Assembly (NCBI GenBank): GCA_964561475.1
Contig: CAZLPU010000019.1
Span: 1,354-65,353, forward strand
Direction: 5' to 3'
Origin: an uncultured Alphaproteobacteria bacterium
GTDB lineage: Bacteria; Pseudomonadota; Alphaproteobacteria; JAJFIK01
DNA length: 64,000 bases
Position 1 is the stretch's first letter. Each line of letters begins with the position of its first letter. Made by a program: the position numbers and the translations under genes. Positions 38,006 to 60,785 of the stretch are shown in pieces. The notes beneath the pieces were generated by a model. The model searched no databases. It saw only the letters and a list, made by a program, of their open reading frames with translations, and was not told the DNA's origin.

Positions 38006-38064
38006 GACACGGACTCGGTGCCATGCTCCGCACACCACATTCACGGCCCTATTGACGGCCACAC

Positions 38065-42120: not shown

Positions 42121-42174
42121 TTCTCCCATTCGGTGCCCCGTTCAGCCGGCCTTTGGGACCGGCCCCATGTCCCC

Positions 42175-44468: not shown

Positions 44469-44684
44469 CAGGCCTCCCAGACTGCAATTGCAGTCCGCAC
44501 GGCTTCGACCGGACCTTCTTGCGCGACCCCGGTTTTCCTTGAAACGCCCGCCCTTTCTGCGCTGACCGTCAGGGCACCCTTCTTGCGCCCACCGTGCCCA
44601 TGGAGGTGGCGACGCCCGATGCTTCTCATGTCAGCACCGGCTTTGTCACCGGATCATTGGACCCATAGACAGAGCAAGAGGTGA

Positions 44685-46628: not shown

Positions 46629-46687
46629 TCAATACGGGCCTTTCACCCATAGGCATACGACGCGCACGCACAACAATTCGCCAATCG

Positions 46688-46720
46688 AGCCGGCCCTGTT
46701 CCAACGGGCCGGCTTTTTTG
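46688..46720 (+). terminator. rho-independent terminator after RTX-like gene
   Basis: GC-rich hairpin agccggccc-tgttccaa-cgggccggct followed by TTTTTTG. Confidence 0.6.
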
Positions 46721-47106: not shown

Positions 47107-47134
47107 CAATGGAAATGGAAATGGAAATGGAAAT
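47107..47134. repeat. hexanucleotide microsatellite (AATGGA)x4.7
   Basis: Read directly: aatggaaatggaaatggaaatggaaatg, in the lower-GC convergent spacer between the RTX-like gene and algI. Confidence 0.8.
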
Positions 47135-47208
47135 GTGAGGGGACATGCAAAAAGCCTGTGGAAGCGCAACGCTTCCACCGGCTGGTCACCTCAGGAATGA
47201 TGACAGGA

Positions 47209-48741
47209 TCAGAAATTGAAGTAGATGAACTCGGTCAGATCGCCCAGCCGATAGAGCTGGATGATCGCCACCAGCCCCATCATCCCATAGGCCGTCGCCC
47301 AACCGGCCGTAGGCCGCCAGATCAAGATGCCCATCACCCGAGACCAAAGACCCGAAACAGTGCCCCCAGCACTGCGGCGAACCTTTGCCACCTCACCGAT
47401 CACAGGGCGATACTTCGAAACAATCTCGATACTGTTGGGTGCCAGCAGACAAATCATCCCAAGACCGATCAAGTGCAACCACATTTGGTCCGTACCGGTC
47501 ATGGCGGATGCCCAGCGCGCCGGCTCAAGCACCTCGGATACACCAACCATCCCTTCAAGAACCTCAAGGGCACCGCCGACGCTCTCCGCCCGGAAGAACA
47601 CCCAGGCCACCACAACGGCAGTCAGGGTCAGAACACGGGCCACGGTCTGGCGCAACGAGGCGGGAACGGCGCCCACGATGGCTGAGCCCTTGGCCAGGTG
47701 GTTCCAGGCGTGGTTGATGATCAGATAGGTCCCGTGAAGCCCGCCCCAGATCACGAAGGTCCAGGCAGCGCCATGCCAGAGACCGCCAAGCAACATGGTG
47801 ATCAAGAGATTGGCATAGCGGCGCACCTGCCCCTTCCTGTTCCCACCCAGAGCAATGTAGAGATAATCGCGGAGAAACCGGGACAGGGTCATATGCCACC
47901 GGCGCCAGAAGTCACTGATGCTCGCCGCCTTGTATGGGGAGTTGAAATTCATCGGCAGACGGATACCAAACAGCCTGGCCAGACCCAATGCCATGTCACA
48001 ATAGCCGGAAAAGTCGAAATAGATCTGGAAAGTGTAAGCCAGAGCCCCTCCCCAGGCCGCCTCGAAGGGGACGCCCCGGCCCGCTTCCGCCATTTCAAAC
48101 ACCGTATTGGCGTATGGCGCAATTCCGTCCGCCAGAACGATCTTCTTGAACAGGCCGATCGCGAACAAGGTGAAGCCGACAGCGAGGTTCATCCCCAGTC
48201 TGGAAGAGAAGATCCCCATACGGAACTGAGGAATTGTGTCCTTCTGCAGTACGATCGGACCGGCGATCAGCTGAGGGAAGAATACGATGAAGAGCATGTA
48301 TCTCGGGAAATCGCATGGCGCTGCCTCGCCGTTCCAGGTATCGCACAGCAGGGAAATCTGCTGAAAGGTGAAAAATGAGATGGCCAGGGGCAAGATGATG
48401 GTGGGGACATCAAAACTCACACCGCTAACCGCAGAAATGTTCCCGAGAATGAACGCCCAGTACTTGAAATAGGCGAGAGCCGCAAGGTTCCCGGCAATGC
48501 CCAGGATCAACAAGGCCTTTGACCGGCGAACGATCAGGATCCGGTGCACGATATAGTTAAGGACGACGGAACCGAGTAGCAGAACCAGATAAGCAACACT
48601 CCACCAGGCATAGAAAGCCAGGGAGGCGGCGATCAGCCAAAAGATGACTCCCTGCTCCGCACGCAAATGACGCAGGATCAGAAAGCCGATCAGCACAACG
48701 GGCAGAAACAGGAACATGAACTCGATGGAACTGAAAACCAT
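47209..48741 (-). CDS. algI: MBOAT family O-acyltransferase (AlgI-like)
   Basis: 510 aa polytopic. MBOAT signature region ...WRRWHMTLSRFLRDYLYIALGGNRKG with conserved His. Confidence 0.85.
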   Translation of the reverse strand: MVFSSIEFMFLFLPVVLIGFLILRHLRAEQGVIFWLIAASLAFYAWWSVAYLVLLLGSVVLNYIVHRILIVRRSKALLILGIAGNLAALAYFKYWAFILGNISAVSGVSFDVPTIILPLAISFFTFQQISLLCDTWNGEAAPCDFPRYMLFIVFFPQLIAGPIVLQKDTIPQFRMGIFSSRLGMNLAVGFTLFAIGLFKKIVLADGIAPYANTVFEMAEAGRGVPFEAAWGGALAYTFQIYFDFSGYCDMALGLARLFGIRLPMNFNSPYKAASISDFWRRWHMTLSRFLRDYLYIALGGNRKGQVRRYANLLITMLLGGLWHGAAWTFVIWGGLHGTYLIINHAWNHLAKGSAIVGAVPASLRQTVARVLTLTAVVVAWVFFRAESVGGALEVLEGMVGVSEVLEPARWASAMTGTDQMWLHLIGLGMICLLAPNSIEIVSKYRPVIGEVAKVRRSAGGTVSGLWSRVMGILIWRPTAGWATAYGMMGLVAIIQLYRLGDLTEFIYFNF

Positions 48742-48771
48742 GACAGTGTTTCCTTTTCTCCGGCGGGAGCC

Positions 48772-49935
48772 CTAGAGTTTTGCGCTGAGATCAGCAAGAA
48801 GGGAACGGGAGCCGGCATGGCCCAGGGCGGAACCAGCCGTGGCCAACTCGATTGCTCTGCTGACGTCTTTTTCAACAAGGTCGCCCTGGGCATAAAGCCG
48901 TCCCAGCTCCTCCATGGCTCCGGCATGGCCCAGGGCCTTTCCCTGCTTCAGCAGCGCAATGGCCCCCTCGCGCTTCAAGCCCCCCTCCTCTTTCAAGTGG
49001 AGCCTCGCCAAGGTGACCATGGCACCGCTATGACCAAGATCGGCGGCATGGCGCAGCAGATTGACTGCTCCCGCCACGGTGTTTTTCTCCCGGTCCTGGA
49101 GGAGCAACTTGGCGAGTTCGTGAACCGCCCCGATGTCACCAAGCTGAGCCGAACGGCGAAACCACACTTCCGCCTCGAGACGATCCTGGGGCAGAAATTC
49201 TCCGTCTCGGCCCATACGCGCCAGTGTTTTGGCAGCGCTTGAAGAACCCTCCCTGGCTCGTGTAATGAAGGCGCCAATGGCCCGGTCGGCCCAGTACTGG
49301 GCATCCTCCGGATGACCAAATTTGTGCTGGATTCCATCCCGAAGCAGTCGCGCATACTGGATCGTCGCCGTCGGGAAGCCATGGATGGCCGCCTGCCGGT
49401 AATGATGAAGAGCTCTGGTCATGTCCGCATCGACGCCGATACCCTTGCGAAAATGAGCAGCAAGCTGAACATGGGCTTTCGGGTACCCCCATCCGAGACT
49501 CTGCTTGAACCAGGCAAGGGCAATGATCTGGCAGTCCACGCCGGTCATGCGTTGGTAGAGACGTCCCAGTTCATAGGCTGCTTCCCCCCGTGCCTCGAAG
49601 GTCTGCTCAACTGCACGTTCGAAAAGAACCCGGGCCTGGTCTAGATTCGCACCGGACCAGAGCTTCTTCCGGTGGGCGCGACCCAGATGGTACATGGCTT
49701 CCGGATGACCGGCCTCAACAAGCCTGCGCAGCACCATCACGGATTCCTCCACATCACCGGTTTTCTGCAGATCCAGAGCCACCTTAATCATTGCTGAATC
49801 CGTCCCCCTGCCTTCATTGATTTCTCCGCAGGCAGAGAGGCTCCCAAGCAGGAGAGCCGCCGCCGCGACAGCCGTGGAAAAGCGCACCGCCCGACCAACG
49901 CGAGCTCTCATGGTCTTGGCCTTACTTCTGGTCAT
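48772..49935 (-). CDS. Sel1-repeat lipoprotein (AlgK-like)
   Basis: Lipobox LLLGSLSAC. At least 6 Sel1 repeats (EAMYHLGRAH, KAHVQLAAHF, GHAGAMEELGRLY ...). Confidence 0.7.
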   Translation of the reverse strand: MTRSKAKTMRARVGRAVRFSTAVAAAALLLGSLSACGEINEGRGTDSAMIKVALDLQKTGDVEESVMVLRRLVEAGHPEAMYHLGRAHRKKLWSGANLDQARVLFERAVEQTFEARGEAAYELGRLYQRMTGVDCQIIALAWFKQSLGWGYPKAHVQLAAHFRKGIGVDADMTRALHHYRQAAIHGFPTATIQYARLLRDGIQHKFGHPEDAQYWADRAIGAFITRAREGSSSAAKTLARMGRDGEFLPQDRLEAEVWFRRSAQLGDIGAVHELAKLLLQDREKNTVAGAVNLLRHAADLGHSGAMVTLARLHLKEEGGLKREGAIALLKQGKALGHAGAMEELGRLYAQGDLVEKDVSRAIELATAGSALGHAGSRSLLADLSAKL

Positions 49936-51163
49936 GGCTCGCCCTCCACACACGGCAGTTGCGTCCCTGGTAAACGTGGACGGACTGATCGGACCAGGCG
50001 GGCTGCTGGCTCCGGATTCCAATTGGACAGCCAAGAGGTACATCCCGTCCGCGCTCCGACGGTTCATCGGCCCCATCAAGGTCAGCCACTTTGCTCAGCT
50101 CAAATACCATCTTGCGCGCGAGCCGGCTGTCGAAATGATAGGCATCCGTGAAATAGCTGAGGTCGCGGGTCAGCTCATTGTCGAAGTCCAAATCAACCAC
50201 CGGTGCCAGACGAGCGAGTTTCCGGCGAAATTCCATGCTTCGCAGGACAATGCCGTAATCCACCGCACGCCATTGCATGTCTGCGATCGTCGGTGGAATG
50301 ACAAAGACCAGTTTCACACCGCTTTGGTGACACCACCGGGCTATCTCCTCGACGAGCCCGAAAAGGCTGTCGGAGAAGGTGAAGGAACCCCAATCATTCC
50401 GTGCACTTTTGCGCACCTGCCGCTCAAATTTTCCCGTAAGGTCACGGTCGGGACGTTCCGTATGCCAGAAACCTCTCCAAGGACCGAAGGTGATAAGATC
50501 CGATGCGGAGTGTTTGGTGCGCGGCCTTCTTTCAGGCGGGAGGATACAACCGGCACACAAGTCAGGATCAAGCAGATTCTCAAGACTTGGGTCATTAAAG
50601 AGCGTCTGTGCTTTCGCACCAGCCACAGACCAAGGTAAAAGACCTCTGAGGCTGTCCAGGGTCTCTCCGTGCTGCTCCTCAATGAGCCGCCATCCCACAC
50701 CAGCAACAAACCAGCTTGTGTAATAGGAAAGCGGATTGCGGGCCATGTGAACGGCTTCCGGAACACGGTTCAGACCACCCCTGTGCCCATCGTAAAAGCT
50801 GCGCAGGGGCAGGCTGACGATCAGGGTTTTGATGGGGACGTTTCTTTGTAAGTGTACAAATGTATCGTAAATCTCCGGGATCGTTGCACCGCCATAGGCG
50901 AAATTGTAAACGCCGTCGACGCTCAGTTCTTTCCAATACCGGTCCTGGAGAGCTCGCGCCCGGCTGTCTCCCAAAACAAAGTGCTCCGCCGTCTGCCGGG
51001 GAAACTCTATCATCTTCCACAAGGCGTAATGGGCCTTTTCGCTTACCGTTTTGCGGTCCAGACCGAGGCCGAACCGCTGGTTCATGGCGAATGGATCCAC
51101 AAAGAAGTTGAAGGCTGCGGGTGCCGAACCCGCAACCATCAGAAGTATGATGATCACCATATA
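49922..51163 (-). CDS. SGNH/GDS-type hydrolase-like membrane-anchored protein (AlgX/AlgJ-like polysaccharide O-acetylation partner)
   Basis: N-terminal TM anchor. HFVLGDSRA block (GDS motif). Sits between an MBOAT and a GT2 in one operon. Overlaps the Sel1 gene by 14 bp. Confidence 0.5.
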   Translation of the reverse strand, partial: YMVIIILLMVAGSAPAAFNFFVDPFAMNQRFGLGLDRKTVSEKAHYALWKMIEFPRQTAEHFVLGDSRARALQDRYWKELSVDGVYNFAYGGATIPEIYDTFVHLQRNVPIKTLIVSLPLRSFYDGHRGGLNRVPEAVHMARNPLSYYTSWFVAGVGWRLIEEQHGETLDSLRGLLPWSVAGAKAQTLFNDPSLENLLDPDLCAGCILPPERRPRTKHSASDLITFGPWRGFWHTERPDRDLTGKFERQVRKSARNDWGSFTFSDSLFGLVEEIARWCHQSGVKLVFVIPPTIADMQWRAVDYGIVLRSMEFRRKLARLAPVVDLDFDNELTRDLSYFTDAYHFDSRLARKMVFELSKVADLDGADEPSERGRDVPLGCPIGIRSQQPAWSDQSVHVYQGRNCRVWRASHDQK

Positions 51164-51358
51164 CGGTGTGACGTTGGGTCTTCTCGGTTTCACAGGCCAC
51201 TCCCTGATCAGTAAGATTGGATCCAAAGGGAGCAATGCCTGCGCCACGGTCGACAGCGCAAAGGACAAGGATCTCCGCCCCTTTTCCGCTACCGGAGGGG
51301 TTTTCCGGAGGAGGGTGACGCAAAGTGCAATGGCAGGTGTCGCAGATGGCTCGACAGG

Positions 51359-52972
51359 TCAGAAGAACAGAGAGCGGATCAGTGGCAGACCCGGTGCCGG
51401 CATCAGGCCGGTCAGGAGAATGACCAACGCGAACAGGGCGGTGACATAGAGGGTGGTCAGATAGACCGCCATGGAGTCCCGGAACAGTTTGAGCAGCCTG
51501 CCCCCATCCACATCGGATTTCTGGTTCCCCCGGTTGGACCACCGCTGGGTTGCCAGCCGGAAAAAGCAATAGACCTTGACCGACGCATTGATAAGTTGAT
51601 TGAGATACAGAATAATTGGATAGGCAAGGTGTATCTTGCGGGAGTAGGAAAACAGAAACAGTGACAGGAGCATCCGCGTGATGGCAATAAAGACCGTATA
51701 CCCCAGAAGATAGCGCCAATCGATCAGAACGGCAGTCGAGACAGCCAGAACGGGGCTCACTAGCATTGTCCACATGGAGATGCGCTGATCCACCAGGCAC
51801 CACCAGATGAAAAAGGGCATTCGACCCGGCCCCAGAGCGATCGCCCGAGAACCGTTACGAAGCATGTTGCCCGACCATCGCCGGAAGTTCTGAACCATGC
51901 GATCCAGACCGGAACCCTCAATGATTTCCACCGTGTAGCCAAGGGCATCCGGCACATAGAGCATCTTGTGACCGCCTTTGAGCAGGTAATACCAAGTGCT
52001 CTTATCGTCGCCCGAGAGAAAGCGGAAGGTGCCCCATAACCAGTGCTCCAGATGATCCGCTTCCAGAAGGCGGATAAACTCCAACTGGAGTAAATGACGG
52101 GCACGGAATACGGACATACGCCCTGTCAATGTGAGAACACGGCCCGAGAGCGCGTGGGATTGCATGGCAATCCGCCGCTGGGCAAATCGCATGGTCAGCC
52201 ACACCGCAATCCAACGGGGACCAATGCAGAGGACCTCTTCATCCGTGGTCACGGCCTGAAGCTTGGGATAGAGGGCAAAGAGCGGGAGACAGCGGCCGAC
52301 ACACCCCACATCCAGTATGAAGTCACCATCCATGAAGATGATCAAATCATCAGGCTGAACACCGCCACGGTTCATTGCCCGCAGCACCAAACCGATCGCC
52401 AGACGCTTCCCTGGCTGGTTCTGGCGAATGATCCTGAGGGTGATATCCAGTTCGGACATTTCCCTGCGGAGTAGTCCCTCGATCAGGTCCTCATCATACC
52501 GGTCGCCGGAGCCGAGCCAGATTGTTCCGGGAACACCTGCTTCCCTCACCTCCCGGCAAATGGACCGGATCACCCGCTCCGTGATGGTGCGCTCCTCCTT
52601 ATAAGTGGTCATCATGAAATGGAGATGGCGCGGGCGCCAACCCTGCTGCCATAGGGCCGCACCATCCTTGCGCATTTTCGGATAGACGAAAGTCCCGTAA
52701 ATTGCTGCACGGATTGTATGGGTGAACCACCAACCGTAGCGCCAGATCCCAAGAAACCCAATCACCAGGGTAATTGTCTGGGTCCGGTTATCCCAGAAAA
52801 CAGTCTCTACATACTGGGTGGCGACAAAGCAAAGGCCAAAATAGACGAACAGGCTGAACAACACCGTAGGCGTCCATTTGGCAAATCCCTGCGGCCTGAA
52901 CGTGATCTCGTCGACCGGGTAGTTCTGCAGAGTTGCCCGCGCGACCTGATCCTTCGACATCAGTTCAACCAA
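51359..52972 (-). CDS. family-2 glycosyltransferase, processive membrane synthase (Alg8-like)
   Basis: DGD (IFMDGDFILD), QNFRRWSGNMLRNG (Q-x-x-R-R-W catalytic motif of chitin/HA/Alg8-type synthases). Multiple TM at both ends. Confidence 0.8.
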   Translation of the reverse strand: MVELMSKDQVARATLQNYPVDEITFRPQGFAKWTPTVLFSLFVYFGLCFVATQYVETVFWDNRTQTITLVIGFLGIWRYGWWFTHTIRAAIYGTFVYPKMRKDGAALWQQGWRPRHLHFMMTTYKEERTITERVIRSICREVREAGVPGTIWLGSGDRYDEDLIEGLLRREMSELDITLRIIRQNQPGKRLAIGLVLRAMNRGGVQPDDLIIFMDGDFILDVGCVGRCLPLFALYPKLQAVTTDEEVLCIGPRWIAVWLTMRFAQRRIAMQSHALSGRVLTLTGRMSVFRARHLLQLEFIRLLEADHLEHWLWGTFRFLSGDDKSTWYYLLKGGHKMLYVPDALGYTVEIIEGSGLDRMVQNFRRWSGNMLRNGSRAIALGPGRMPFFIWWCLVDQRISMWTMLVSPVLAVSTAVLIDWRYLLGYTVFIAITRMLLSLFLFSYSRKIHLAYPIILYLNQLINASVKVYCFFRLATQRWSNRGNQKSDVDGGRLLKLFRDSMAVYLTTLYVTALFALVILLTGLMPAPGLPLIRSLFF

Positions 52973-54528
52973 CTCTGGAGCAGGCGGATCGGACCCAGAC
53001 TGGTTGATTTCTCGAAGATGACCAGTGCCGGTTCACCGGTCTGCAATACACCCACTTCCGTAATCCCGATCTCGACGATTGCCGTCGGCGTTTCCTTATC
53101 CCGCCACTGATAATCACCCGAGACCTCATCGAAGAATGCTTCCGTGCGATTGATCTCTCGAATAACGCCGTCCACCCAGGTGTTCTTGGCACGCAGGAAA
53201 ACCCTTGTGCTGTCACCAATCCTCAAATCGCCAACAACGGTTTGCGCCACGAATGCCCGCACATGCTCCGTACCGACCTGTTCCAGGGTCAGGATCGCGT
53301 CTCCCTGCCTCGTGAAATTGCCTTCCGCTGCCGTGACGGCGACAACCCGTGCAGGCCAACTCGCGCGAACAATCAATCGGGCCTGACTTTCCTTGAGGAG
53401 AGCAAGGGTCTGTCTCGCCGCTGCCACTTCCCCCCGCGCTCTGACCACGGCAGCGGTGGTATCGATCTTTTCACCAACGAACCGCCCGCCGGTGAAGAGG
53501 TCGTCCCCCTGAGTTTCCTGGTACAGTGTCTCCAGCTCATTCAGATGAATGTCCTTGCGTTCCAGTTCAGACTCCAGGGCAGTGATCTTACTGCGGATGA
53601 TATCCACCTGCGACTGGGTGGTCCAACCCTTGCGCCGAAGCTCCATCTGTGCGGCAAGCTGGCGTCTCGAACCGCCGATCTCGCTTCGCAGGGCCCGGAT
53701 CTGTGACTTCATCTGGGCAATATTGTTCCGGGCAATCAGGTTGTAGCCCTTGGCCCTGGCGGCGGCCTGGCGGGCCAGGATCTCCTGCTCCTCCAACTCC
53801 GCTTCTGCCAGGGCAAGAGCCCGCATGGCATCACGAACGTCCTCGTCCAGATCCTGATCCTGCATGCGCATGAGGATCTCACCACGCTTGACAACCTGTT
53901 GGGGCACAACCCGAATATCCAGAATCCTGCCCCTCGACGGCGAGGTCAGGTCAACAGTCTCCGCACTGATGACTGCAGTATCCACCTGCATGTGAAACAG
54001 GGCTGAGTAGATTGCAAGCCCGACATAGCTGAAGACGAAAGCCCCGAGAAAGAGGTAGAAGACCGACATTCCAATCGTCTTCAAGGGCCACCGGCGTACT
54101 GGAATTTCATTCTTTGGATTGGTGTCGGGCTTGGTTGATACCGGCGTGACTGGAACATCAATACGCTGAATGGTGTCTTCCACCGGAACCATGGAGCCAC
54201 GGACCAGTTCTTCAATAAAGTGGCTCATCAGGGCTTTCTGCCGGTCGTCCAGATCCAGAAATTCAACCGCAAACGTCCCTTCCGGTACATCAACGCGAAC
54301 CGTCCGGGCAATCACCCGGTATGAAACAAAAAAGCCTTGGAATGGAATGGACAGATGATATGCCGCCTCCTGACCCAATTCGATTTCCGGACCGGCAGGG
54401 GTATCGGCGAGGAATCCACCAAGGGACCAGTTGCGAATCCGAATCCGGCATCCCTCGCGCGTTGCTCCGATCGGGGCCGTGACCCGATGAAAACGACGCT
54501 GACATGGACGTTCACGGACTACCTTCAT
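52960..54528 (-). CDS. PilZ domain + HlyD-like membrane-fusion protein (Alg44-like c-di-GMP receptor/copolymerase)
   Basis: N-terminal PilZ motifs (RERPCQRRFHR ... NWSLGG = RxxxR ... D/NxSxxG). One TM. Long coiled-coil plus beta-barrel HlyD-type periplasmic domain. Confidence 0.8.
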   Translation of the reverse strand: MKVVRERPCQRRFHRVTAPIGATREGCRIRIRNWSLGGFLADTPAGPEIELGQEAAYHLSIPFQGFFVSYRVIARTVRVDVPEGTFAVEFLDLDDRQKALMSHFIEELVRGSMVPVEDTIQRIDVPVTPVSTKPDTNPKNEIPVRRWPLKTIGMSVFYLFLGAFVFSYVGLAIYSALFHMQVDTAVISAETVDLTSPSRGRILDIRVVPQQVVKRGEILMRMQDQDLDEDVRDAMRALALAEAELEEQEILARQAAARAKGYNLIARNNIAQMKSQIRALRSEIGGSRRQLAAQMELRRKGWTTQSQVDIIRSKITALESELERKDIHLNELETLYQETQGDDLFTGGRFVGEKIDTTAAVVRARGEVAAARQTLALLKESQARLIVRASWPARVVAVTAAEGNFTRQGDAILTLEQVGTEHVRAFVAQTVVGDLRIGDSTRVFLRAKNTWVDGVIREINRTEAFFDEVSGDYQWRDKETPTAIVEIGITEVGVLQTGEPALVIFEKSTSLGPIRLLQSWLN

Positions 54529-54678
54529 GGACTCATTCCGCAGCAGAGGTATCCGTGCCCCGCAGGGATTATACCGTTGAGTGCCAGGTCAAAATCGAAG
54601 GGAACGCTTCCCTTCCGGCCTGGCGTGAACACCGCCTGGCTCCCATTCTGCGGCACTTGCTCGTGCATTTCGGGAGGC

Positions 54679-55239
54679 TCACAGGAGGCCGTGGATCTTT
54701 CCAAGACCGACAGCCGCCACATGATTGTTGAGGCAAATGGCACCGGACCGGACAAAACCGCAAATCTCCTCCCCTGTCCGCCGCAACACCGCAATCTCTT
54801 CCAATTCATCCGGCTCCACTCTCTCGACCGGTGTCAGGTTCTTCGCATGAAAGTAGTGTCCCGTGCCCGCACCAAGATTGCCATGCACACCCGCACTGCC
54901 CAGCGATGTCCAATCGGCGGCATGGAACCCGGTTTCTTCTGCCAGTTCACGCCTCGCCGCGGCCAATGGCGTCTCGCCTGGCTCCACAAGGCCGCCCTGA
55001 AGCGTGTAAGTATACCGCCCGATACCATGCTTATACTGACGGTTAAGGAGAAATCTCCCACCCTCGCATTCTGCCAGGATCGCAACAAAGTCCGGAAGAA
55101 TAAGACGGTGAAAGTCTTCAATCTCCTTGCCAGAAGGTAAAGACACCTTCTGAACCCTAAGCTCCATCCACGGGCGGGAGACATAGACGGTGCGTTCGTC
55201 CAGCACCCGCCACGGCACTTCCCGGTCCCTCTCCGTCAT
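54679..55239 (-). CDS. NUDIX hydrolase
   Basis: Nudix box GGLVEPGETPLAAARRELAEETG. Confidence 0.8.
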   Translation of the reverse strand: MTERDREVPWRVLDERTVYVSRPWMELRVQKVSLPSGKEIEDFHRLILPDFVAILAECEGGRFLLNRQYKHGIGRYTYTLQGGLVEPGETPLAAARRELAEETGFHAADWTSLGSAGVHGNLGAGTGHYFHAKNLTPVERVEPDELEEIAVLRRTGEEICGFVRSGAICLNNHVAAVGLGKIHGLL

Positions 55240-55322
55240 GGCCCATATCCCCCATCCTGCGCGTTCACGGACGTTACCCCTATCAGGTTAGGCTTAGCTG
55301 AAGGTAAGCTTGGTCATCACCA

Positions 55323-55339
55323 TTGCCTCATCCGCACCA
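55323..55339 (-). promoter_or_regulatory. weak candidate sigma-54 (-24/-12) promoter upstream of nudix-alg44-alg8 operon
   Basis: Minus strand reads TGGTGCGGATGAGGCAA (GG and GC spaced as in TGGCAC-N5-TTGCA), 85-100 nt upstream of the NUDIX start. Confidence 0.25.
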
Positions 55340-55550
55340 CTCCATGGCCGATCCGTTCTTGGTCAGGATACCCATCAGTCCCTTTCACACTCCGTAACAG
55401 GACGGTAACAGGTCCGGGATCGGCTGGGGATGTCTGCCATTTCGGAAGGGTCTCCCAAAGTGCAAAAGCGGAATGGGCGGATCGACAGACAGCAACCCCA
55501 TAAAACCCTATAATATACTGTTTTTATTGAGTTATTTTCTTGAGATAGTT

Positions 55551-55567
55551 TGGCTGCAGCCCTGCAT
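55551..55567 (+). promoter_or_regulatory. candidate sigma-54 (-24/-12) promoter upstream of algD
   Basis: TGGCTGCAGCCCTGCAT matches the conserved positions of TGGCACG-N4-TTGCA (TGGC...TGCA, correct spacing). An AT-rich block (possible IHF site) lies immediately upstream. The algD ATG lies 47 nt downstream, with SD GAGGGAT. Confidence 0.45.
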
Positions 55568-55613
55568 CCCTCTCTGCCCAGTACGGCGAGACGTCAAATG
55601 AGGGATACGGACG

Positions 55614-57032
55614 ATGGACAATGTCATCACACTGCAAGCTGCTGCCCTGACTTCTTCTGTTGCAAATCGGTCGGCGGCAGCCCCGTCACCCCACCGCCAG
55701 CCGCTCAGCATCTTTGGTCTGGGTTATGTCGGCTCCGTTTCCATGGCCTGCTTCGCGGATCGCGGTCATGGGGTGATCGGGGTTGATCCGGACCACCGGA
55801 AAACCGCACGGATTGCCCAAGGTGAGTCTCCGATTGTGGAAAAGGACCTGAACGAACTGCTCCACGACGGTGTCCAGGAAGGCCGCATCTCGGTTTCCGC
55901 AAGTGCCGCCTATGCGGTCCTCAACTCCAACATCAGCTTTGTCTGTGTGGGAACACCAAGCACGCCTGACGGACGGTGTGACCTCAGCTATCTGAAGGCT
56001 GTCTGTAATGACATCGGTACAACCCTCGCCGATAAGGATGGCTTCCACGTGATTGCGTTCCGGAGCACTGTATCCCCTGGCGCGTGCCGAAAAACCCTGA
56101 TCCCGATCCTGGAAGAGGCGTCCGGCAAAACTGTCGGCGTTGACTTCGGCGTTGCATTCCACCCTGAATTTCTGCGGGAGGCCACCGCCGTCGATGACTT
56201 CCGCAACCCGCCGAAAACGGTGGTAGGTGCAACGGACCTGCGCACCGCACGGATGATCGGTGATCTCTATGCCGGCATTGATGATGAGCCGATCTTCACC
56301 AGTGTTGAAGCAGCGGAAATGGTCAAGTATGTGGACAATTGCTGGCACGCAACCAAAGTGGCCTTTGCGAATGAAGTCGGGCGTCTGTGCAAGGCCCTCA
56401 ACGTGGACAGTCACGATGTGATGGACGTATTCGTTCAGGATACCAAGCTCAACTTGTCCGCGTACTACATGAAGCCGGGTTTTGCCTTTGGTGGTTCCTG
56501 TCTGCCGAAAGATGTGCGCGGCCTCGCCCGGGTCAGCAGCGATATGGGCGTTGAGGTGCCATTACTCGACAGCCTGATTCCCAGCAACAAGGCACACATT
56601 GACCACGCCATGGGCCTCGTCAAGAAAGCCGGAGCCAAGAAGGTCGCCATGCTGGGTATTACATTCAAACCGGGAACGGACGACCTGCGGGAGAGTCCCA
56701 TGCTGACCCTCCTCGATCAGCTTCTCGCCAGCGGCATCGATGTTCAGGTCTATGATGCCAATGTACAGTGTACGGGCAAACTCGGCCACTACCTTCAGCA
56801 CGCCAAAGCCGATGACGGCCAGGGCGCACGGATTGAAGCTGTCATGGAGGACCTTCTCCACGAATCGGCATCAGACGCATTACGCGGTTGCGACACAGTC
56901 ATCATGGCCCATGGGACACCGGATATGAAGAAGGCCATCGCCCGCCTGCCCGACCGGGTCACGGTTATCGATCTTGCACGGGTGGACCGGCAAAAGGAAG
57001 CTCGCGGCAGCTATAAGGGGCTCTGCTGGTAA
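55614..57032 (+). CDS. algD: GDP-mannose 6-dehydrogenase
   Basis: Strongly AlgD-like over the whole length (FGLGYVGSV NAD fold; NLSAYYMKPGFAFGGSCLPKDVRGL catalytic Cys; GITFKPGTDDLRESP; C-terminal GLCW versus GICW in Pseudomonas AlgD). Confidence 0.9.
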   Translation: MDNVITLQAAALTSSVANRSAAAPSPHRQPLSIFGLGYVGSVSMACFADRGHGVIGVDPDHRKTARIAQGESPIVEKDLNELLHDGVQEGRISVSASAAYAVLNSNISFVCVGTPSTPDGRCDLSYLKAVCNDIGTTLADKDGFHVIAFRSTVSPGACRKTLIPILEEASGKTVGVDFGVAFHPEFLREATAVDDFRNPPKTVVGATDLRTARMIGDLYAGIDDEPIFTSVEAAEMVKYVDNCWHATKVAFANEVGRLCKALNVDSHDVMDVFVQDTKLNLSAYYMKPGFAFGGSCLPKDVRGLARVSSDMGVEVPLLDSLIPSNKAHIDHAMGLVKKAGAKKVAMLGITFKPGTDDLRESPMLTLLDQLLASGIDVQVYDANVQCTGKLGHYLQHAKADDGQGARIEAVMEDLLHESASDALRGCDTVIMAHGTPDMKKAIARLPDRVTVIDLARVDRQKEARGSYKGLCW

Positions 57033-57060
57033 CCGGTTCATCTTTGGAATGAGTACCTGA

Positions 57061-57103
57061 AGCAAGACCGCCGCCGGCAAGGGCAGGTCTTGCTTTACTT
57101 TTC
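57061..57103 (+). terminator. rho-independent terminator after algD
   Basis: Hairpin agcaagacc-N16-ggtcttgct followed by TTTACTTTT. Confidence 0.5.
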
Positions 57104-57105
57104 CA

Positions 57106-60100
57106 TGGCATACAAACCCCGTGGGGTGGCAGCCGGGAGAAAGTGTATCGTGCCAGAAAAAGACGCGTTCAGCGGAGGCGGCGGAGAGGGGGCACGCCTC
57201 GCCGCTCTGCACAGTTACAATATCTGTGACACCGGACCCGAAGAGGTCTTTGACCGGATCACCCGTACAGCGGCAATGGTGTTCGATGCGCCGATGTGCG
57301 CGCTTTCCCTGGTCACCGAGGACCGGCAGTGGTTCAAATCCCGCATTGGCATTGATGCTTCCGAAACACCCAGGGATCTTGCCTTCTGCAGTCATACCAT
57401 TTTGAGTGATGACGTGCTGGTGGTCACCGATGCCAAGACGGATACGCGGTTCAAGGACAATGCTCTTGTTCAGGGGCCGCCCTATATCCGTTTTTATGCT
57501 GGCGCCCCAATCACCACGCCCGACGGTTACAGATTGGGTGCCCTATGTGTTCTTGACCGCAGAGCCCGCGCACCGCTCAGCCCGCAGCAACGCCAGGCTC
57601 TGTCGGATCTAGCCGGAATGGTGGGAGACGCCCTCGAAACCCGGAGGAACAATACCGGTCTGAGGAGAGCGCGGGATTTGATCCGGGATGTGGTTGATCT
57701 CATTCCAGATGAAGTTCTTGTCTTCGATGCCAAGGGTGATTTCTTGACTGCGAATGTCAGGGGCAGCGCGTGGCTTGACCAGACCCTGAACAAATCCGCA
57801 TCTCCCCTGACCTATTCAAGAATTGTCGCCACGCTGGCTGAAAACTGGACCTTGACAGAAGAGACCATCAGCAAGTGTGATACTGATTTTCAGAGTGCCC
57901 TGGAAAGGATCTTTACGGAGACCACCGGTCAGGTGGACCTGAGGTCGGCGCAGGGCGTTTACCTGCGCACAACCATGTGCAGGACCGCGGGCGGTGAACG
58001 GGTCATGGTCCTGCGTGATCTAAGCGAAACCGCTCGCAGGCTGCGGGAAACGCTCTGGTCCAAGACGGTGATTGATGAGGTGGAGCGTCTGGCCCGAATT
58101 GGCTATTTCGTCTTTGAAGCAGAAACTCTGGAAACATCGTTTCTGTCACCGGGGCTCAAAGCCCTGGCGCCGACGCTGCCAAGCCACGATCATGTTCAGG
58201 GTCTTGATGAACTGCTGGAGCGCGTGCATCCCGATGACCGGGAACACGTTCAGCAGGCCGTCGCCGATACGCTGAACGGGCGGACCAATCTCAACCTTGA
58301 ACTCCGGACACTGACTGCCGATGGAAAGATTGAATATCTCTGGCTTTCCGACGCCAGAATTATCGATCCGGAGACGAACCGGGAACACAGAATCGGTATC
58401 GTACAGGACATCACGGAACGGATCGAAAAGGAGTCCGCCCTCCGGCGCAGTGTCGCCATGCGGGATGCCGTCCGTGAAAGCGCCCTGGATTGCATCATCA
58501 CCATCAATGACTCCGGTGATATTGTTGATTTCAATAATGCGGCATCCCGTGTTTTCGGCTATCCGATCCCCTATGCCATTGGCCGACGGTTGAGTGATCT
58601 CATCATTCCTCCGGGATTGCGTGCGCTCCACGATCGTGGTTTGAGCCACTATATGGCAACGGGTGAGCATAAAGTCCTTGGCAAGAGAATTGAGATTACG
58701 GGAATGCGCGCGGACGGCTCCGAAATTCCTGTGGAGCTGGCCATCACCCCCTTCGAGGTCGACGGGACCCAGTTTTTTACTGCCTATCTTCGTGATATCT
58801 CTGAGCGGATCAAGTCAGAAGCGCTGTTGAGGAAGAGCGAAGACAGCTTGGCCCAAGCCCAGGAAATCGCCCAGCTTGGCAGTTGGGAATGGGACATCAT
58901 CGAGGACAAGTTCGAATGGTCCCGACAGGTGTCAAAGATCCTTGGTCTGCCTGAGGATCAATCCCTGACATTTTCCGATTACATCGGCAGTATCCATCAT
59001 GACGACCGCCACAAGGTGGAAAGCCTGATCGAAACCCATATCAGGCGTGGCCGAAATTACGAGATCGAGCACAGGATCTTGCAGCCGGATGGTGATGTCC
59101 GAACGATATTCGGGAAGGGCATCCCGAAGTTCGACGAGACCGGTGCGCTGATCAGGGTGTTTGGCACTGTCCAGGATGTGACAGCCATCAGGGATAGTGA
59201 GATCGAACTCAAGGAGGCCAAGGAGGCCGCCGAGGCGGCAAGTCGGGCCAAATCCGGGTTCCTGGCGACCATGAGCCATGAAATCAGGACACCCCTCAAC
59301 GGTATCATCGGTGGACTGAACCTCCTGAGAGATACGGAACTCTCAGTTGAGCAGCGGGGCCACACCGAACTGGCCCTTCAGTCCGGGGAGAGCCTCCTGA
59401 CCTTGATCAACGACCTGTTGGATTTCTCCAAGATCGAGGCAGGTCATCTGGAATTGGAGTTCATGCCCTTCGAGCTTCGGGATCTTGTCTATCGTTCGGT
59501 GGAAATTCTGGGCCCCCTTGCCCAGGCCAAGGGTCTGCCAATCTTCTCGGATATTTCCAATGTCCTCCCCTTCGGCATCCGTTCAGATCCATCGCGGATC
59601 CGCCAGGTACTGATCAACCTGTTGTCCAACGCCATCAAGTTCACGAATCAAGGACGGGTGGTCGTCCGTCTTTCTTCCAGAACCAGTGAAGAAGAAGAAG
59701 ACGGACAGGTCTGGCTTCGTTTCGAGGTCGAGGACACGGGCATCGGGATTCCCGCAGACCATCAAAATCTTCTGTTTTCGGAGTTTCAGCAGCTTGATAC
59801 GTCGTACACCCGGAGATTCGGGGGAACCGGACTTGGCCTCGCCATTTCCCAGCGTCTTGTGCACGCTTTGGGCGGTTCCATCGGGGTGAACAGTACTGAA
59901 GGCAGAGGAAGCTGTTTCTGGTTCGAGATCCCGGCGGAAGTGACCAAGATTGTGGAGCCCACTGGGACCGATGCGGACGGTGTGGAACCGGACGCCTTGG
60001 ATGGCCGGATCCTTCTGGTTGAAGACAGTCAGACCAATGCCTATGTGGCGCAGACCCTTTTGCGGCGCAAGGGGGCGATTGTCGATCATGTCAGCAATGG

Positions 60101-60785
60101 GCTCGAGGCGCTCCGAGCCGTCGGCGAACGCTCTTATGATATCGTGCTGATGGACCTGTCCATGCCGGAAATGGATGGGCTGACCGCCACACGCCGGATC
60201 AGGACCTGTGCATGCTCCCAGAACAGCATTCCGATCATTGCCATGACCGCCAACGCCTCCATGGAGGATCAGGCCCGCTGTTTTGAGGCGGGTATGAATG
60301 ATTTCGTGGTCAAACCAGTCAGGCGCGGTCCGTTCTTGAGAACCGTGTCACACTGGCTGGCCAATGAACCCGAGACCGAACAGACCACCGCCACCGACAG
60401 CGTGATTGAAGGCAAACCCGTGCTCGATGAAGATCACTTGCGGGAGTCCTGGTCAAACCTGGGCGATGATATCTGCACAGAGATTATCGGTCTTTTCCTT
60501 GAAGAGGTGGATTGTCGTCTCGACACCATCAGGCACAATGCCGCCCAGGACCGGATCGACCTCCCCGCCATGGCCAAGGAAGCCCATGCGCTGAAAAGCG
60601 CCGCGGGCAATGTGGGCGCGCGCCAGCTTCAGTTTCTCGCGGAATTCATTGAACGTCACGCCACCCAGGGCGGTTTTGAACCAAGGGAATCGGTCAAGGA
60701 TCTGGAAATCGTCGCCCTCCGGACAAAGGAAGCATTGGGCCGCGACCGGGCGGCCATGCCATCAAAGGCTGTAACTGGTGAATGA
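57106..60785 (+). CDS. multidomain hybrid sensor histidine kinase (GAF - 3x PAS/PAC - HisKA - HATPase - REC - HPt)
   Basis: ATG 57106 (MAYKPRG). GAF ([25 protein letters not shown]). PAS blocks. H-box [15 protein letters not shown]-boxes. Receiver [15 protein letters not shown]-terminal HPt [12 protein letters not shown]. Confidence 0.85.

What the first reader, a model, noticed from the sequence alone, without database searches (positions are those of the whole stretch)
47209..57032. Compact alginate-like exopolysaccharide locus (algD divergent from nudix-alg44-alg8-algX/J-algK-algI) in an alphaproteobacterial-type genome, lacking algE/G/L/A in this window
A PilZ+HlyD fusion (Alg44-type), an Alg8-type GT2 with the QxxRRW motif, a Sel1 lipoprotein (AlgK-type), an MBOAT (AlgI-type) plus an SGNH-like partner, and a bona fide AlgD-like GDP-mannose 6-dehydrogenase together are diagnostic of a c-di-GMP-regulated acetylated polymannuronate pathway. 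Here the gene order is rearranged and the set is reduced. No AlgE porin, AlgG epimerase, AlgL lyase or AlgA appear within about 15 kb, and a NUDIX gene (possibly GDP-sugar hydrolase) heads the operon. Outside the gammaproteobacteria such loci are uncommon. The product might be a non-epimerised acetylated mannuronan, or a related polymer.
Basis: partly seen in the sequence, partly recalled or inferred. Interest (0 to 1): 0.7.

Follow-up and report, generated by a model that had tools for sequence, protein, structure and literature searches.

The report
Compact alginate-like exopolysaccharide gene cluster
The genes are real and most likely make an acetylated, alginate-type (mannuronic acid) slime polymer. 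They belong to a widespread but unstudied family in marine bacteria that lacks the usual alginate outer-membrane pore and modifying enzymes and uses different partner proteins.

Summary
On the minus strand, 47209-55239 carries NUDIX, a PilZ-MFP protein, a GT2, an SGNH-like protein, a Sel1 lipoprotein and an MBOAT. A GDP-mannose 6-dehydrogenase diverges from them at 55614-57032. Against a Pseudomonas alg operon, the GT2 is 39.5% identical to Alg8, the dehydrogenase 43% to AlgD and the MBOAT 42% to AlgI. The PilZ-MFP matches Alg44 along its full length (hhalign 99.3%). No AlgE, AlgG, AlgL, AlgX or AlgF homologue occurs anywhere in the 64 kb.

The interpretation needs three corrections.
1. The "AlgX/J" gene is a canonical-order SGNH protein of DltD/DUF1574 type, not the permuted AlgX family.
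2. The Alg44-like protein carries about 140 extra residues. They form an EmrA/HlyD-type alpha-hairpin that Alg44 lacks.
3. The locus is not rare. All 33 other loci that carry the five core genes keep the same order, and none has AlgE/G/L/X/K.

The system also extends beyond the given coordinates. It includes an RTX/DUF4114 lectin-like protein (44685-46628) and a hybrid kinase with a sigma-54 activator (57090-62223). Positionally conserved -24/-12 promoters are present. This window lacks the family's usual periplasmic beta-propeller/(alpha/alpha)6 enzyme and ManC/PMM.

Verdict: a new variant of a known kind, of moderate interest.

The parts
44572..44587 (+). Candidate sigma-54 (-24/-12) promoter of the RTX/DUF4114 gene, GGGCACCCTTCTTGCG, 97 nt upstream of the ATG
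   Evidence: It matches 9 of 12 consensus positions with GG-N10-GC. Stronger matches lie at 72-100 nt upstream of the orthologous gene in L013, L015 and L016.
44685..46628 (+). Secreted RTX / DUF4114 protein (647 aa), a probable Ca2+-dependent glycan-binding matrix protein
   Evidence: Pfam finds HemolysinCabind x12 and DUF4114. It is 36-54% identical to genes next to the core in L013, L015, L016 and L017, and the family is present in 16 of 25 loci of at least 15 kb. DUF4114 is described as a Ca-dependent sugar-binding module (PMC9109919). It shows no similarity to AlgG or AlgL.
46695..46718 (+). Terminator-like hairpin plus T-run after the RTX gene
47148..47178 (-). Terminator-like hairpin (9 pairs) plus T-run about 30 nt after the MBOAT stop; the operon ends here
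   Evidence: Relatives have a roughly 645-aa gene at this position, and tblastn finds no trace of it here.
47209..48741 (-). AlgI-like MBOAT (510 aa), the membrane acyl (acetyl) donor translocase
   Evidence: Pfam MBOAT E 4e-35. It is 42% identical to AlgI over 386 aa, E 4e-85. The WRRWH and WHG motifs are visible.
48772..49935 (-). Sel1-repeat lipoprotein (387 aa; lipobox LSAC), the AlgK analogue
   Evidence: Sel1 hit; hhalign against AlgK gives 95% probability and E 3e-8 over 139 columns. It always sits between the SGNH and MBOAT genes.
49922..51193 (-). Membrane-anchored SGNH-fold protein of DltD/DUF1574 type (423 aa), the presumed periplasmic O-acetyltransferase partner of the MBOAT
   Evidence: G75-D76-S77 and D350/H353 are invariant in 37 homologues. 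The AF2 model has pLDDT 85 with an N-terminal TM helix. The Foldseek top hits are DltD (6o93, 7dxm, 3bma), followed by SGNH esterases, PatB and OatA. A Colwellia orthologue hits DUF1574 at E 3e-6.
51231..51246 (-). Sigma-54 (-24/-12) promoter TGGCGCAGGCATTGCT, 37 nt upstream of the SGNH gene start
   Evidence: It has one mismatch to TGGCAC-N5-TTGCW. The same element lies at 35 nt in L013 and at 34 nt in L015, where it is a perfect match.
51359..52960 (-). Alg8-like family-2 glycosyltransferase / polymer synthase (533 aa)
   Evidence: 39.5% identity to Alg8, E 1e-90. 108 columns are invariant with Alg8, including DGD, GDDKS and RW; a further shared motif reads TTDE here and TTNE in Alg8. It falls in a clade distinct from Pseudomonas Alg8.
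52960..54528 (-). Alg44-like co-polymerase (522 aa): N-terminal PilZ domain, one TM helix, and a full-length EmrA/HlyD-type periplasmic adaptor with an alpha-hairpin
   Evidence: hhalign against Alg44 gives 99.3% probability and E 4e-20 over residues 1-515, with about 140 inserted residues at 231-375. RxxxR (R11, R15) and NxSxxG (S35, G37, G38) are invariant. The profile hits EmrA 4tko at E 5e-13 across residues 189-465.
54679..55239 (-). NUDIX nucleoside-diphosphate-sugar pyrophosphatase-like protein (186 aa)
   Evidence: NUDIX domain; the best PDB relatives are ADP-ribose/ADP-sugar pyrophosphatases. It is 38% identical to the NUDIX gene of the ManC-PMM-NUDIX string in L017.
55551..55566 (+). 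Weak sigma-54-like element TGGCTGCAGCCCTGCA, 47 nt upstream of the dehydrogenase ATG
   Evidence: It matches 8 of 12 positions with GG-N10-GC. On its own it is not convincing.
55614..57032 (+). AlgD-like GDP-mannose 6-dehydrogenase (472 aa)
   Evidence: PDB 1mfz scores 396 bits and E 2e-117 along the full length, against 233 bits for the best UDP-glucose dehydrogenase. It is 42.9% identical to AlgD.
57090..60785 (+). Hybrid sensor kinase with GAF, PAS domains, HisKA, HATPase, REC and Hpt
   Evidence: A homologous kinase lies next to the core in L013, L015 and L016.
60778..62223 (+). NtrC-type sigma-54-dependent response regulator
   Evidence: REC, Sigma54_activat and HTH_8 domains. It is 47-48% identical to the regulator next to the core in L013 and L015, and one is present in 17 of 25 loci of at least 15 kb.

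Best explanation
This is a synthase-dependent exopolysaccharide system of the alginate lineage that most likely makes an O-acetylated poly-mannuronate.

Shown steps (homology and context):
- An AlgD-like dehydrogenase would supply GDP-mannuronate.
- An Alg8-like GT2 is paired by translational coupling with an Alg44-like protein whose PilZ domain keeps both c-di-GMP-binding motifs.
- An AlgI-like MBOAT is paired with a membrane-anchored SGNH protein that has an intact Ser-Asp-His motif set.
- A Sel1 lipoprotein is encoded between the SGNH and MBOAT genes.
- An adjacent hybrid kinase and NtrC-type activator, together with positionally conserved -24/-12 promoters, place at least the SGNH-Sel1-MBOAT genes and the RTX/DUF4114 gene under sigma-54 control.

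Inferred steps:
- c-di-GMP binding to the PilZ domain switches polymerisation and inner-membrane translocation on, as in Alg44.
- The MBOAT passes acetyl groups to the SGNH protein, which O-acetylates the polymer in the periplasm. This is a two-protein module like PatA/PatB, in place of AlgI/J/F/X.
- With no AlgG-type epimerase, the polymer stays mannuronan.
- The NUDIX enzyme trims the GDP-sugar pool.
- The secreted RTX/DUF4114 protein binds the polymer with Ca2+ outside the cell.

The route across the outer membrane is not encoded in the locus. The EmrA/HlyD-type alpha-hairpin in the Alg44-like protein suggests docking to a TolC-type channel encoded elsewhere.
For: - Pairwise identities to Pseudomonas AlgD, Alg8, AlgI and Alg44.
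- AlgD is by far the best PDB hit for the dehydrogenase.
- The GT2 gives no PDB hit, BcsA included, at E<=1.
- Profile match to Alg44 along the full length, and to AlgK repeats.
- PilZ motifs invariant in six family members and in Alg44.
- Catalytic GT2 motifs shared with Alg8.
- SGNH motifs, model and fold hits.
- In relatives the same core sits next to ManC (PMI-GMP), PMM, GMD and NUDIX, i.e. a complete GDP-mannuronate supply.
- 33 of 33 loci with all five core genes are colinear. None of the 71 related loci examined has an AlgE, AlgG, AlgL, AlgX or AlgK homologue.
- A sigma-54 promoter is conserved 34-37 nt upstream of the SGNH gene in three loci. Others precede the PilZ, ManC and RTX genes.
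- The hairpin insertion is mapped. EmrA, HlyD and MacA are the best PDB matches for the family profile. Pseudomonas Alg44 matches only the beta-barrel part of the adaptor models.
- In the wider Alg8-like superfamily, some GT2s are fused to a PL14 lyase domain or to a pectate-lyase/epimerase-like domain (weak hit, below Pfam's cut-off). This fits uronan chemistry.
Against: - No polymer has been analysed for any member of this family, and no paper in the searched library links alg8 to these genera.
- The GT2 belongs to a clade separate from characterised Alg8, so linkage or even donor could differ.
- The window lacks ManC and PMM and also the periplasmic beta-propeller/(alpha/alpha)6 protein found in 25 of 29 informative relatives. 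The local system may therefore depend on unlinked genes, or behave differently.
- No strong sigma-54 element precedes the NUDIX or PilZ genes in this window.
- The MBOAT also scores 167 bits to the DltB model and the partner's nearest folds are DltD. An acyl group other than acetyl is therefore not excluded.
- The TolC idea rests only on the presence of a hairpin. No TolC-like gene is seen in the window's annotated ORFs or in five annotated relatives.
Confidence: 0.6

Rival explanations
1. An ordinary alginate pathway that is merely split. AlgE, AlgG, AlgL, AlgX/J/F and AlgA lie elsewhere in the genome, and the product is normal acetylated, epimerised alginate exported through an AlgE porin.
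For: Only about 64 kb of a 68.7-kb contig is visible. ManC and PMM must be encoded elsewhere in this organism, because relatives have them in the locus and this window does not.
Against: None of the 71 related loci from many taxa has an AlgE, AlgG, AlgL, AlgX or AlgK homologue within up to 10 kb on either side, as far as each contig extends. The family has its own SGNH partner in place of AlgX/J and its own periplasmic enzyme in place of AlgL/AlgG. The Alg44-like protein has a different periplasmic architecture.
Confidence: 0.12
2. The polymer is not a mannuronan. The Alg8-like synthase uses another donor or makes another linkage, such as a different uronan or a neutral glycan, and the dehydrogenase serves another pathway.
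For: The GT2 clade is separate from characterised Alg8 at about 40% identity. GMD was detected in only 14 of 25 long loci. Its position varies: divergent, downstream of MBOAT, or between the GT2 and SGNH genes.
Against: GMD, ManC, PMM and NUDIX recur next to the core in different arrangements, which is what selection for GDP-mannuronate supply would produce. The dehydrogenase is clearly of AlgD type. The catalytic motifs are shared with Alg8.
Confidence: 0.15
3. In this organism the locus is a decaying or non-functional remnant. It has lost the periplasmic beta-propeller/(alpha/alpha)6 enzyme and the precursor genes.
For: The roughly 645-aa gene found after MBOAT in 25 of 29 informative relatives is missing, as are ManC and PMM. 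The region has lower G+C than its flanks. The SGNH protein is unusually divergent, at most 48% identical to any relative, whereas the GT2 reaches 74%.
Against: All genes are intact, and each of the five core proteins aligns to its homologues over nearly its whole length. The catalytic and ligand-binding residues are retained. A terminator-like hairpin follows MBOAT directly. Four other loci (L068, L069, L073, L084) also lack the gene, with GMD or ManC following MBOAT.
Confidence: 0.08

Closest known systems
Pseudomonas/Azotobacter alginate system (algD-8-44-K-E-G-X-L-I-J-F-A)
   Same: It shares homologues of AlgD (43% identity), Alg8 (39.5%), AlgI (42%) and Alg44 (full-length profile match with the PilZ motifs kept). 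It also has a Sel1/TPR lipoprotein in the role of AlgK. The logic is synthase-dependent and c-di-GMP-gated.
   Different: It has no AlgE porin, AlgG epimerase, AlgL lyase, AlgX/AlgJ or AlgF. Acetylation uses a single canonical-order SGNH protein of DltD/DUF1574 type. The Alg44-like protein carries an EmrA/HlyD-type hairpin of about 140 residues. Control is by sigma-54 and an NtrC-type regulator with conserved promoters. A RTX/DUF4114 protein accompanies it. The gene order differs.
'Atypical' alginate operons of environmental bacteria (Bundalovic-Torma et al. 2020, PMC7112194)
   Same: That survey already reported divergent alginate operons that have lost algKE and/or algGXLIJF.
   Different: The non-Pseudomonas, non-Azotobacter species visible in its tables are Alcanivorax, Nitratiruptor, Thermovibrio, Tolumonas, Dinoroseobacter and Halothece. 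Labrenzia is not in its files, and Polymorphum appears only in the genome lists. This architecture, with its SGNH protein, hairpin and RTX/DUF4114 protein, is not described there.
Roseobacter/Rhizobium replicon-borne alginate-like cluster (e.g. Loktanella salsilacus plasmid NZ_CP072993)
   Same: It is alphaproteobacterial, and it has GMD, an Alg8-like GT (36% identical to the window GT2) and an MBOAT.
   Different: It is closer to the canonical system: the GT is 44% identical to Alg8, and it has two AlgX-like proteins, an AlgG-like beta-helix protein, an annotated AlgF and a large TPR protein. None of these is in the window.
Two-protein MBOAT + SGNH acyl-transfer modules (PatA/PatB for peptidoglycan; DltB/DltD for teichoic acids)
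   Same: A membrane MBOAT sits next to a single-pass anchored SGNH-fold protein with Ser, Asp and His. DltD is the best fold match. The AlgI with AlgJ/X versus PatA/PatB analogy is drawn in PMC9487903.
   Different: The MBOAT is clearly closest to AlgI. There is no DltA or DltC in the locus, and the target is presumably a secreted uronan.
TolC-dependent tripartite exporters (EmrAB-TolC, HlyBD-TolC, MacAB-TolC)
   Same: The periplasmic part of the Alg44-like protein aligns continuously with EmrA from the lipoyl domain through the hairpin to the beta-barrel. It also aligns with the HlyD and MacA hairpin regions.
   Different: The inner-membrane partner is a glycosyltransferase synthase, not an ABC, MFS or RND pump. 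There is an N-terminal PilZ domain. No outer-membrane factor is linked, and docking is untested.

Membership tests
Alginate biosynthesis system (alg operon) | Alg8-type GT2 mannuronan synthase | tested here: met
   39.5% identity over 430 aa, E 1e-90. 108 invariant columns including the catalytic motifs. No BcsA or other PDB hit. It does sit in a separate clade from Pseudomonas Alg8.
Alginate biosynthesis system (alg operon) | Alg44 co-polymerase: PilZ domain, TM helix and periplasmic adaptor domain | tested here: met
   hhalign gives 99.3% probability and E 4e-20, residues 1-515 against Alg44 20-393. It has an extra hairpin of about 140 residues that Alg44 lacks.
Alginate biosynthesis system (alg operon) | c-di-GMP binding by the PilZ domain (RxxxR and D/NxSxxG) | tested here: met
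   R11, R15, S35, G37 and G38 are invariant in six family members and in Alg44. Actual binding cannot be tested here.
Alginate biosynthesis system (alg operon) | AlgD GDP-mannose 6-dehydrogenase | tested here: met
   1mfz scores 396 bits along the full length against 233 bits for the best UDP-glucose dehydrogenase. 42.9% identity.
Alginate biosynthesis system (alg operon) | AlgI MBOAT | tested here: met
   42% identity over 386 aa, E 4e-85.
Alginate biosynthesis system (alg operon) | AlgK TPR lipoprotein | tested here: inconclusive
   It is a Sel1 lipoprotein with a lipobox. hhalign gives 95% probability over 139 repeat columns. The NCBIfam AlgK model scores 33 bits against a cut-off of 700, and MotX scores higher.
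Alginate biosynthesis system (alg operon) | AlgE outer-membrane porin | tested here: not met
   No tblastn hit in the window or in any of the 71 related loci searched.
Alginate biosynthesis system (alg operon) | AlgG C5-epimerase and AlgL lyase | tested here: not met
   No hits in the window or in related loci. The family's own periplasmic enzyme, which is absent here, shows no profile similarity to either.
Alginate biosynthesis system (alg operon) | AlgX/AlgJ circularly permuted SGNH-like acetyltransferases and AlgF | tested here: not met
   The motif order here is GDS (75-77) then DxxH (350-353), whereas the AlgX family has H-S-G-N (PMC9487903). No AlgX or AlgJ appears in the Foldseek top 50. 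hhalign against AlgX gives only 50% probability. Loktanella AlgF has no hit in the window. AlgJ itself was not available for comparison.
Alginate biosynthesis system (alg operon) | Product is a mannuronate/guluronate polymer | not testable with these tools
   This needs EPS composition analysis.
SGNH hydrolase clan, DltD/DUF1574 branch | Block I GDS serine and Block V DxxH in canonical order, on an alpha/beta/alpha fold | tested here: met
   The residues are invariant. The AF2 model has pLDDT 85. The top folds are DltD, then SGNH esterases, PatB and OatA, although TM-scores are modest at 0.37-0.42.
SGNH hydrolase clan, DltD/DUF1574 branch | Pfam DUF1574 (PF07611) at gathering score | tested here: not met
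   The window protein scores 10.8 bits and the Colwellia orthologue 27.3 bits, against a cut-off of 29.1. A few family members carry the precomputed hit.
TolC-dependent periplasmic adaptor (EmrA/HlyD type) | Lipoyl domain, alpha-helical hairpin and beta-barrel in one chain | tested here: met
   The family profile matches EmrA 4tko at E 5e-13, residues 189-465 against 18-301. It also matches the HlyD (5c21), 8dck and MacA hairpin regions and the NCBIfam EmrA, MdtN and HlyD models. No 3D model was made.
TolC-dependent periplasmic adaptor (EmrA/HlyD type) | Works with an outer-membrane factor and a pump | not testable with these tools
   No TolC-like gene was seen in the annotated parts of the window or in five annotated relatives. 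The partner here is a GT2 synthase.
Sigma-54 regulon with an NtrC-type activator | -24 GG / -12 GC promoter upstream of target genes, with an adjacent enhancer-binding protein | tested here: met
   The element lies 34-37 nt upstream of the SGNH gene in the window, L013 and L015. Others precede the PilZ, ManC and RTX genes. The activator is at 60778-62223. Window-wide, the pattern is not enriched; the support comes from positional conservation.

The most novel reading that the evidence does not exclude
The family may be a distinct type of synthase-dependent polysaccharide secretion machine. In it, a c-di-GMP-gated Alg8/Alg44-like synthase would be coupled through a full EmrA/HlyD-type alpha-hairpin to a TolC-type outer-membrane channel. 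That would be a tripartite-efflux-pump architecture used for polymer export, in place of the TPR-plus-porin exit (AlgK/AlgE, BcsC, PgaA, PelB/C) used by all characterised systems. The product, an acetylated mannuronan, would then be organised outside the cell by a co-regulated Ca2+-dependent RTX/DUF4114 lectin.
Probability: 0.2. Interest if true: 0.8.

Novelty: new variant of a known kind. Interest (0 to 1): 0.55.

Why it matters
Alginate-type polymers are studied almost only in Pseudomonas and Azotobacter. This locus represents a large, conserved family. It is found mainly in marine Alphaproteobacteria (Roseibium/Labrenzia, Pelagibius, Coralliovum, Kiloniella and Emcibacter, many of them associated with corals, sponges or algae) and in a few Gammaproteobacteria.

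The family keeps the synthase core but replaces every periplasmic and outer-membrane accessory. It therefore offers three things:
- a natural minimal set for asking which alginate components are really essential;
- a candidate bacterial source of unepimerised acetylated mannuronan in the sea;
- a concrete, testable case of how a synthase-dependent polymer can leave the cell without a dedicated porin.

It also assigns a probable role to an SGNH family (the DUF1574 branch) that has no characterised member.

Tried and rejected
- Source organism: exact look-ups of the dehydrogenase and the PilZ protein found no record. 'Alphaproteobacterial' therefore rests only on the taxonomy of the nearest named homologues.
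- Genomic island: G+C dips across roughly 45-62 kb and a tRNA-Lys sits at 62508-62583. No repeat of at least 13 nt of the tRNA region marks another boundary, so an island is not shown.
- Riboswitches or other known RNAs: Rfam found only the tRNA.
- The RTX protein as an AlgE1-7-like secreted epimerase or a lyase: no profile similarity to AlgG or AlgL, and Pfam shows only RTX repeats and DUF4114. Rejected.
- TolC, type I secretion or porin genes in the window: none among the ORFs scanned.
- A sigma-54 promoter directly upstream of the NUDIX or PilZ genes in the window: only weak 8-of-12 matches.
- The sequence search of the 423-aa protein against the PDB gave only noise.

Full report
**What is in the sequence**

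The minus strand between 47209 and 55239 carries six intact genes:
- NUDIX, 54679-55239;
- a 522-aa PilZ plus membrane-fusion protein, 52960-54528;
- a 533-aa family-2 glycosyltransferase, 51359-52960, whose start overlaps the preceding stop;
- a 423-aa protein with no family hit, 49922-51193;
- a 387-aa Sel1-repeat lipoprotein, 48772-49935;
- a 510-aa MBOAT, 47209-48741.

A 472-aa nucleotide-sugar dehydrogenase diverges from them at 55614-57032. The gene starts follow the calls made on two identical Logan contigs.

**Test against real alginate proteins**

I recovered a Pseudomonas paraeruginosa alg operon (L003) and eight other Pseudomonas or Azotobacter loci, using the Alg44 PilZ sequence printed by the PDB search. 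BLASTP gave these matches:

| Window protein | Alg protein | Identity | Length | E-value |
|---|---|---|---|---|
| GT2 | Alg8 | 39.5% | 430 aa | 1e-90 |
| Dehydrogenase | AlgD | 42.9% | 445 aa | 3e-130 |
| MBOAT | AlgI | 42% | 386 aa | 4e-85 |
| PilZ-MFP | Alg44 | 26.8% | 235 aa | 5e-13 |
| Sel1 protein | AlgK | 26.8% | 82 aa | 3e-4 |

- The dehydrogenase's best PDB hit is P. aeruginosa GDP-mannose 6-dehydrogenase, at 396 bits along the full length. The best UDP-glucose dehydrogenase scores 233 bits.
- The GT2 has no PDB sequence match at E<=1, so it is not close to BcsA.
- The GT2 shares 108 invariant columns with Alg8, including the DGD, GDDKS and RW motifs. A further shared motif reads TTDE here and TTNE in Alg8.
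- Profile comparison gives 99.3% probability for the PilZ-MFP family against Alg44 across the whole length. It gives 95% for the Sel1 family against AlgK repeats.
- The RxxxR and (D/N)xSxxG motifs that bind c-di-GMP are invariant in six family members and in Alg44.

**What is absent**

tblastn with Pseudomonas AlgE, AlgG, AlgX and AlgL finds nothing anywhere in the 64 kb. The same is true for the AlgF, AlgG-like and AlgX-like proteins of a Loktanella cluster. ManC and PMM of relatives are absent as well.

**The 'AlgX/J' gene is a different kind of SGNH protein**

- It has no Pfam, NCBIfam or PDB sequence hit.
- Its homologues are all annotated as hypothetical proteins.
- In an alignment of 37 of them, G75-D76-S77 and D350/H353 are invariant. 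These correspond to Block I and Block V of SGNH hydrolases, in the canonical order.
- The AlphaFold model (pLDDT 85) has one N-terminal transmembrane helix and an alpha/beta domain.
- Its best solved-structure matches are DltD, followed by SGNH esterases, PatB and OatA. No AlgX or AlgJ appears in the top 50.
- A Colwellia orthologue hits Pfam DUF1574 at E 3e-6.
- DUF1574 belongs to the SGNH clan and has no characterised member. AlgX and AlgJ are circularly permuted (H-S-G-N) (PMC9487903).

The MBOAT partner is therefore a functional analogue of AlgX/J, not a member of that family. The module resembles the two-protein PatA/PatB or DltB/DltD arrangement.

**The Alg44-like protein has a different periplasmic architecture**

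The profile alignment with Alg44 leaves about 140 residues of the window protein (roughly 231-375) unmatched. They lie exactly where membrane-fusion proteins carry their alpha-helical hairpin. A profile of the six family members finds Aquifex EmrA (4tko) at E 5e-13 over residues 189-465, and also matches the hairpin regions of HlyD, a type I secretion adaptor and MacA. Pseudomonas Alg44 matches only the beta-barrel part of the same adaptor models. This is a sequence-level result; I made no 3D model of this protein.

**The locus belongs to a large conserved family**

- The GT2 search returned 2354 hits. The closest are 62-74% identical. Almost all source-named hits are marine Alphaproteobacteria, and JGI labels some of them 'glycosyltransferase Alg8'.
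- Five loci from genomes and metagenomes were examined: Coralliovum pocilloporae, a Colwellia MAG, a contig carrying a Pelagibius protein, and two others. All have the same core. Most or several of them also have a sigma-54 activator with a sensor kinase, a RTX/DUF4114 protein, GMD, ManC, PMM and sometimes NUDIX. All five have a Pfam-less gene of about 645 aa after the MBOAT.
- A metagenome scan anchored on the SGNH protein gave 66 more loci.
- Across these 71 loci, 33 carry all five core genes, and all 33 are colinear.
- The 645-aa gene is present in 25 of 29 informative loci.
- Among the 25 loci of at least 15 kb, the RTX/DUF4114 gene is present in 16, the sigma-54 activator in 17 and GMD in 14.
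- None of the 71 has an AlgE, AlgG, AlgL, AlgX or AlgK homologue.

The lack of these genes is a property of the family, not an accident of this window. The claim that such loci are uncommon outside the gammaproteobacteria does not hold for this family.

**Place in the Alg8-like superfamily**

An exhaustive search of cluster representatives found only 512 Alg8-like clusters, 172 of them at E<=1e-30. In a neighbour-joining tree, the window family and four further representatives form a clade apart from the one that holds Pseudomonas Alg8 and a Loktanella GT. The Loktanella cluster lies on a plasmid and is closer to canonical: it has AlgX-like proteins, an AlgG-like protein and an annotated AlgF.

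**What this window lacks relative to its family**

In the window, a terminator-like hairpin follows the MBOAT stop directly, and tblastn finds no remnant of the gene. Four other loci also lack it. ManC and PMM must be encoded elsewhere in this organism.

**Regulation**

Immediately downstream of the dehydrogenase lie a hybrid kinase (GAF, PAS, HisKA, HATPase, REC, Hpt) and an NtrC-type sigma-54 activator. The activator is 47-48% identical to the regulators next to the core in relatives.

A -24/-12 element, TGGCGCAGGCATTGCT, lies 37 nt upstream of the SGNH gene at 51231-51246. The same element lies at 35 nt in L013 and at 34 nt in L015, where it is a perfect match. Good matches also precede the PilZ gene (L013, L016, L017), the ManC operon (L015, L017) and the RTX gene (L013, L015, L016). 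The window's RTX gene has a weaker one at 44572-44587.

Window-wide, the pattern is not enriched. The evidence is its positional conservation. No strong element precedes the NUDIX or PilZ genes in this window.

**The RTX/DUF4114 neighbour**

The gene at 44685-46628 encodes a protein in which Pfam finds only RTX repeats and a DUF4114 domain. It is 36-54% identical to the genes next to the core in four relatives. DUF4114 is described as a Ca2+-dependent sugar-binding module and has been proposed to bind EPS in Myxococcus PilY1.1 (PMC9109919). I infer a secreted, calcium-dependent polymer-binding protein. It is not an Azotobacter-type epimerase.

**Most likely mechanism**

GDP-mannuronate from the AlgD-like enzyme is polymerised and pushed across the inner membrane by the Alg8-like/Alg44-like pair when c-di-GMP binds the PilZ domain. 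The MBOAT and the SGNH protein O-acetylate the polymer in the periplasm. With no AlgG-type epimerase, it stays mannuronan. The NUDIX enzyme, which belongs to the NDP-sugar pyrophosphatase group, may trim the GDP-sugar pool.

The homology and context are shown. The chemistry and the c-di-GMP switch are inferred. Export across the outer membrane is unexplained. The hairpin suggests a TolC-type partner, but nothing tests this here.

**Prior knowledge**

Bundalovic-Torma et al. 2020 reported 'atypical' alginate operons that lack algKE or the modification genes. The atypical hosts visible in their tables are other taxa. Full-text searches found no paper that links alg8 with the genera carrying this family.

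**Verdict**

This is a new variant of a known kind. The finding is real and was largely read correctly, but it is one member of an already abundant, uncharacterised family rather than a rarity.

Noticed in passing
window 45000-62300; tRNA-Lys 62508-62583 (-): The whole system (RTX gene, core genes, kinase and regulator) lies in a stretch of lower G+C, 0.55-0.60 against 0.61-0.65 in the flanks. The stretch ends at a tRNA-Lys gene. In the Pelagibius-type locus L015 a phage-type integrase flanks the RTX gene. Horizontal acquisition is possible, but no att-like repeat was found.
   Followed up: partly
window 47110-47135: A short hexamer run, (TGGAAA)x4, lies in the 580-bp gene-free gap between the RTX and MBOAT genes. 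This is the position where relatives have the 645-aa gene.
   Followed up: no
window 31747-41168: Four proteins with caspase (Peptidase_C14) domains are clustered here. One has Sel1 repeats, one an FGE-sulfatase domain and one DUF4384. An OmpA-domain protein (41162-42778) and an autotransporter beta-domain protein (34477-35970) lie next to them. This cluster is unrelated to the polysaccharide locus and its function is unexplained.
   Followed up: no
window 21104-23080 (+): A second hybrid histidine kinase with GAF, HisKA, HATPase and REC domains. The kinase of relative L013 matches it at 36% identity, about as well as it matches the kinase next to the locus (35.9%).
   Followed up: no
P0374, P0367 and other 850-960-aa representatives: Many Alg8-like GT2s in the representative library are 850-960 aa long. 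One 777-aa example (P0374) carries a C-terminal PL14 polysaccharide-lyase domain. Another (P0367) has a weak pectate-lyase/epimerase-like hit, below Pfam's cut-off. These would be fusions of a synthase with a modifying enzyme.
   Followed up: partly
L018 (Loktanella salsilacus plasmid NZ_CP072993, 169709-194995): A second, more canonical alginate-like cluster on a roseobacter plasmid. It has GMD, an Alg8-like GT (44% identical to Alg8), a nucleotidyltransferase, an AlgG-like beta-helix protein, an MBOAT, two AlgX-like proteins, an annotated AlgF and a large TPR protein. GT2 homologues with similar identity to the window protein also lie on large Rhizobium replicons; their neighbourhoods were not examined.
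   Followed up: partly
L020, L023, L025, L080 (metagenome loci): In this subgroup the 645-aa gene sits between the GT2 and SGNH genes instead of after the MBOAT. In L023 and L025, NUDIX follows the MBOAT, and GMD follows NUDIX in L025. L021 and L026 show the same MBOAT-NUDIX-GMD string. The accessory genes move around a fixed five-gene core.
   Followed up: partly
window 55614-55703: The dehydrogenase has about 30 N-terminal residues that AlgD lacks. Relatives have extensions of 24-58 residues. This may be a real extension or a mis-set start codon.
   Followed up: no
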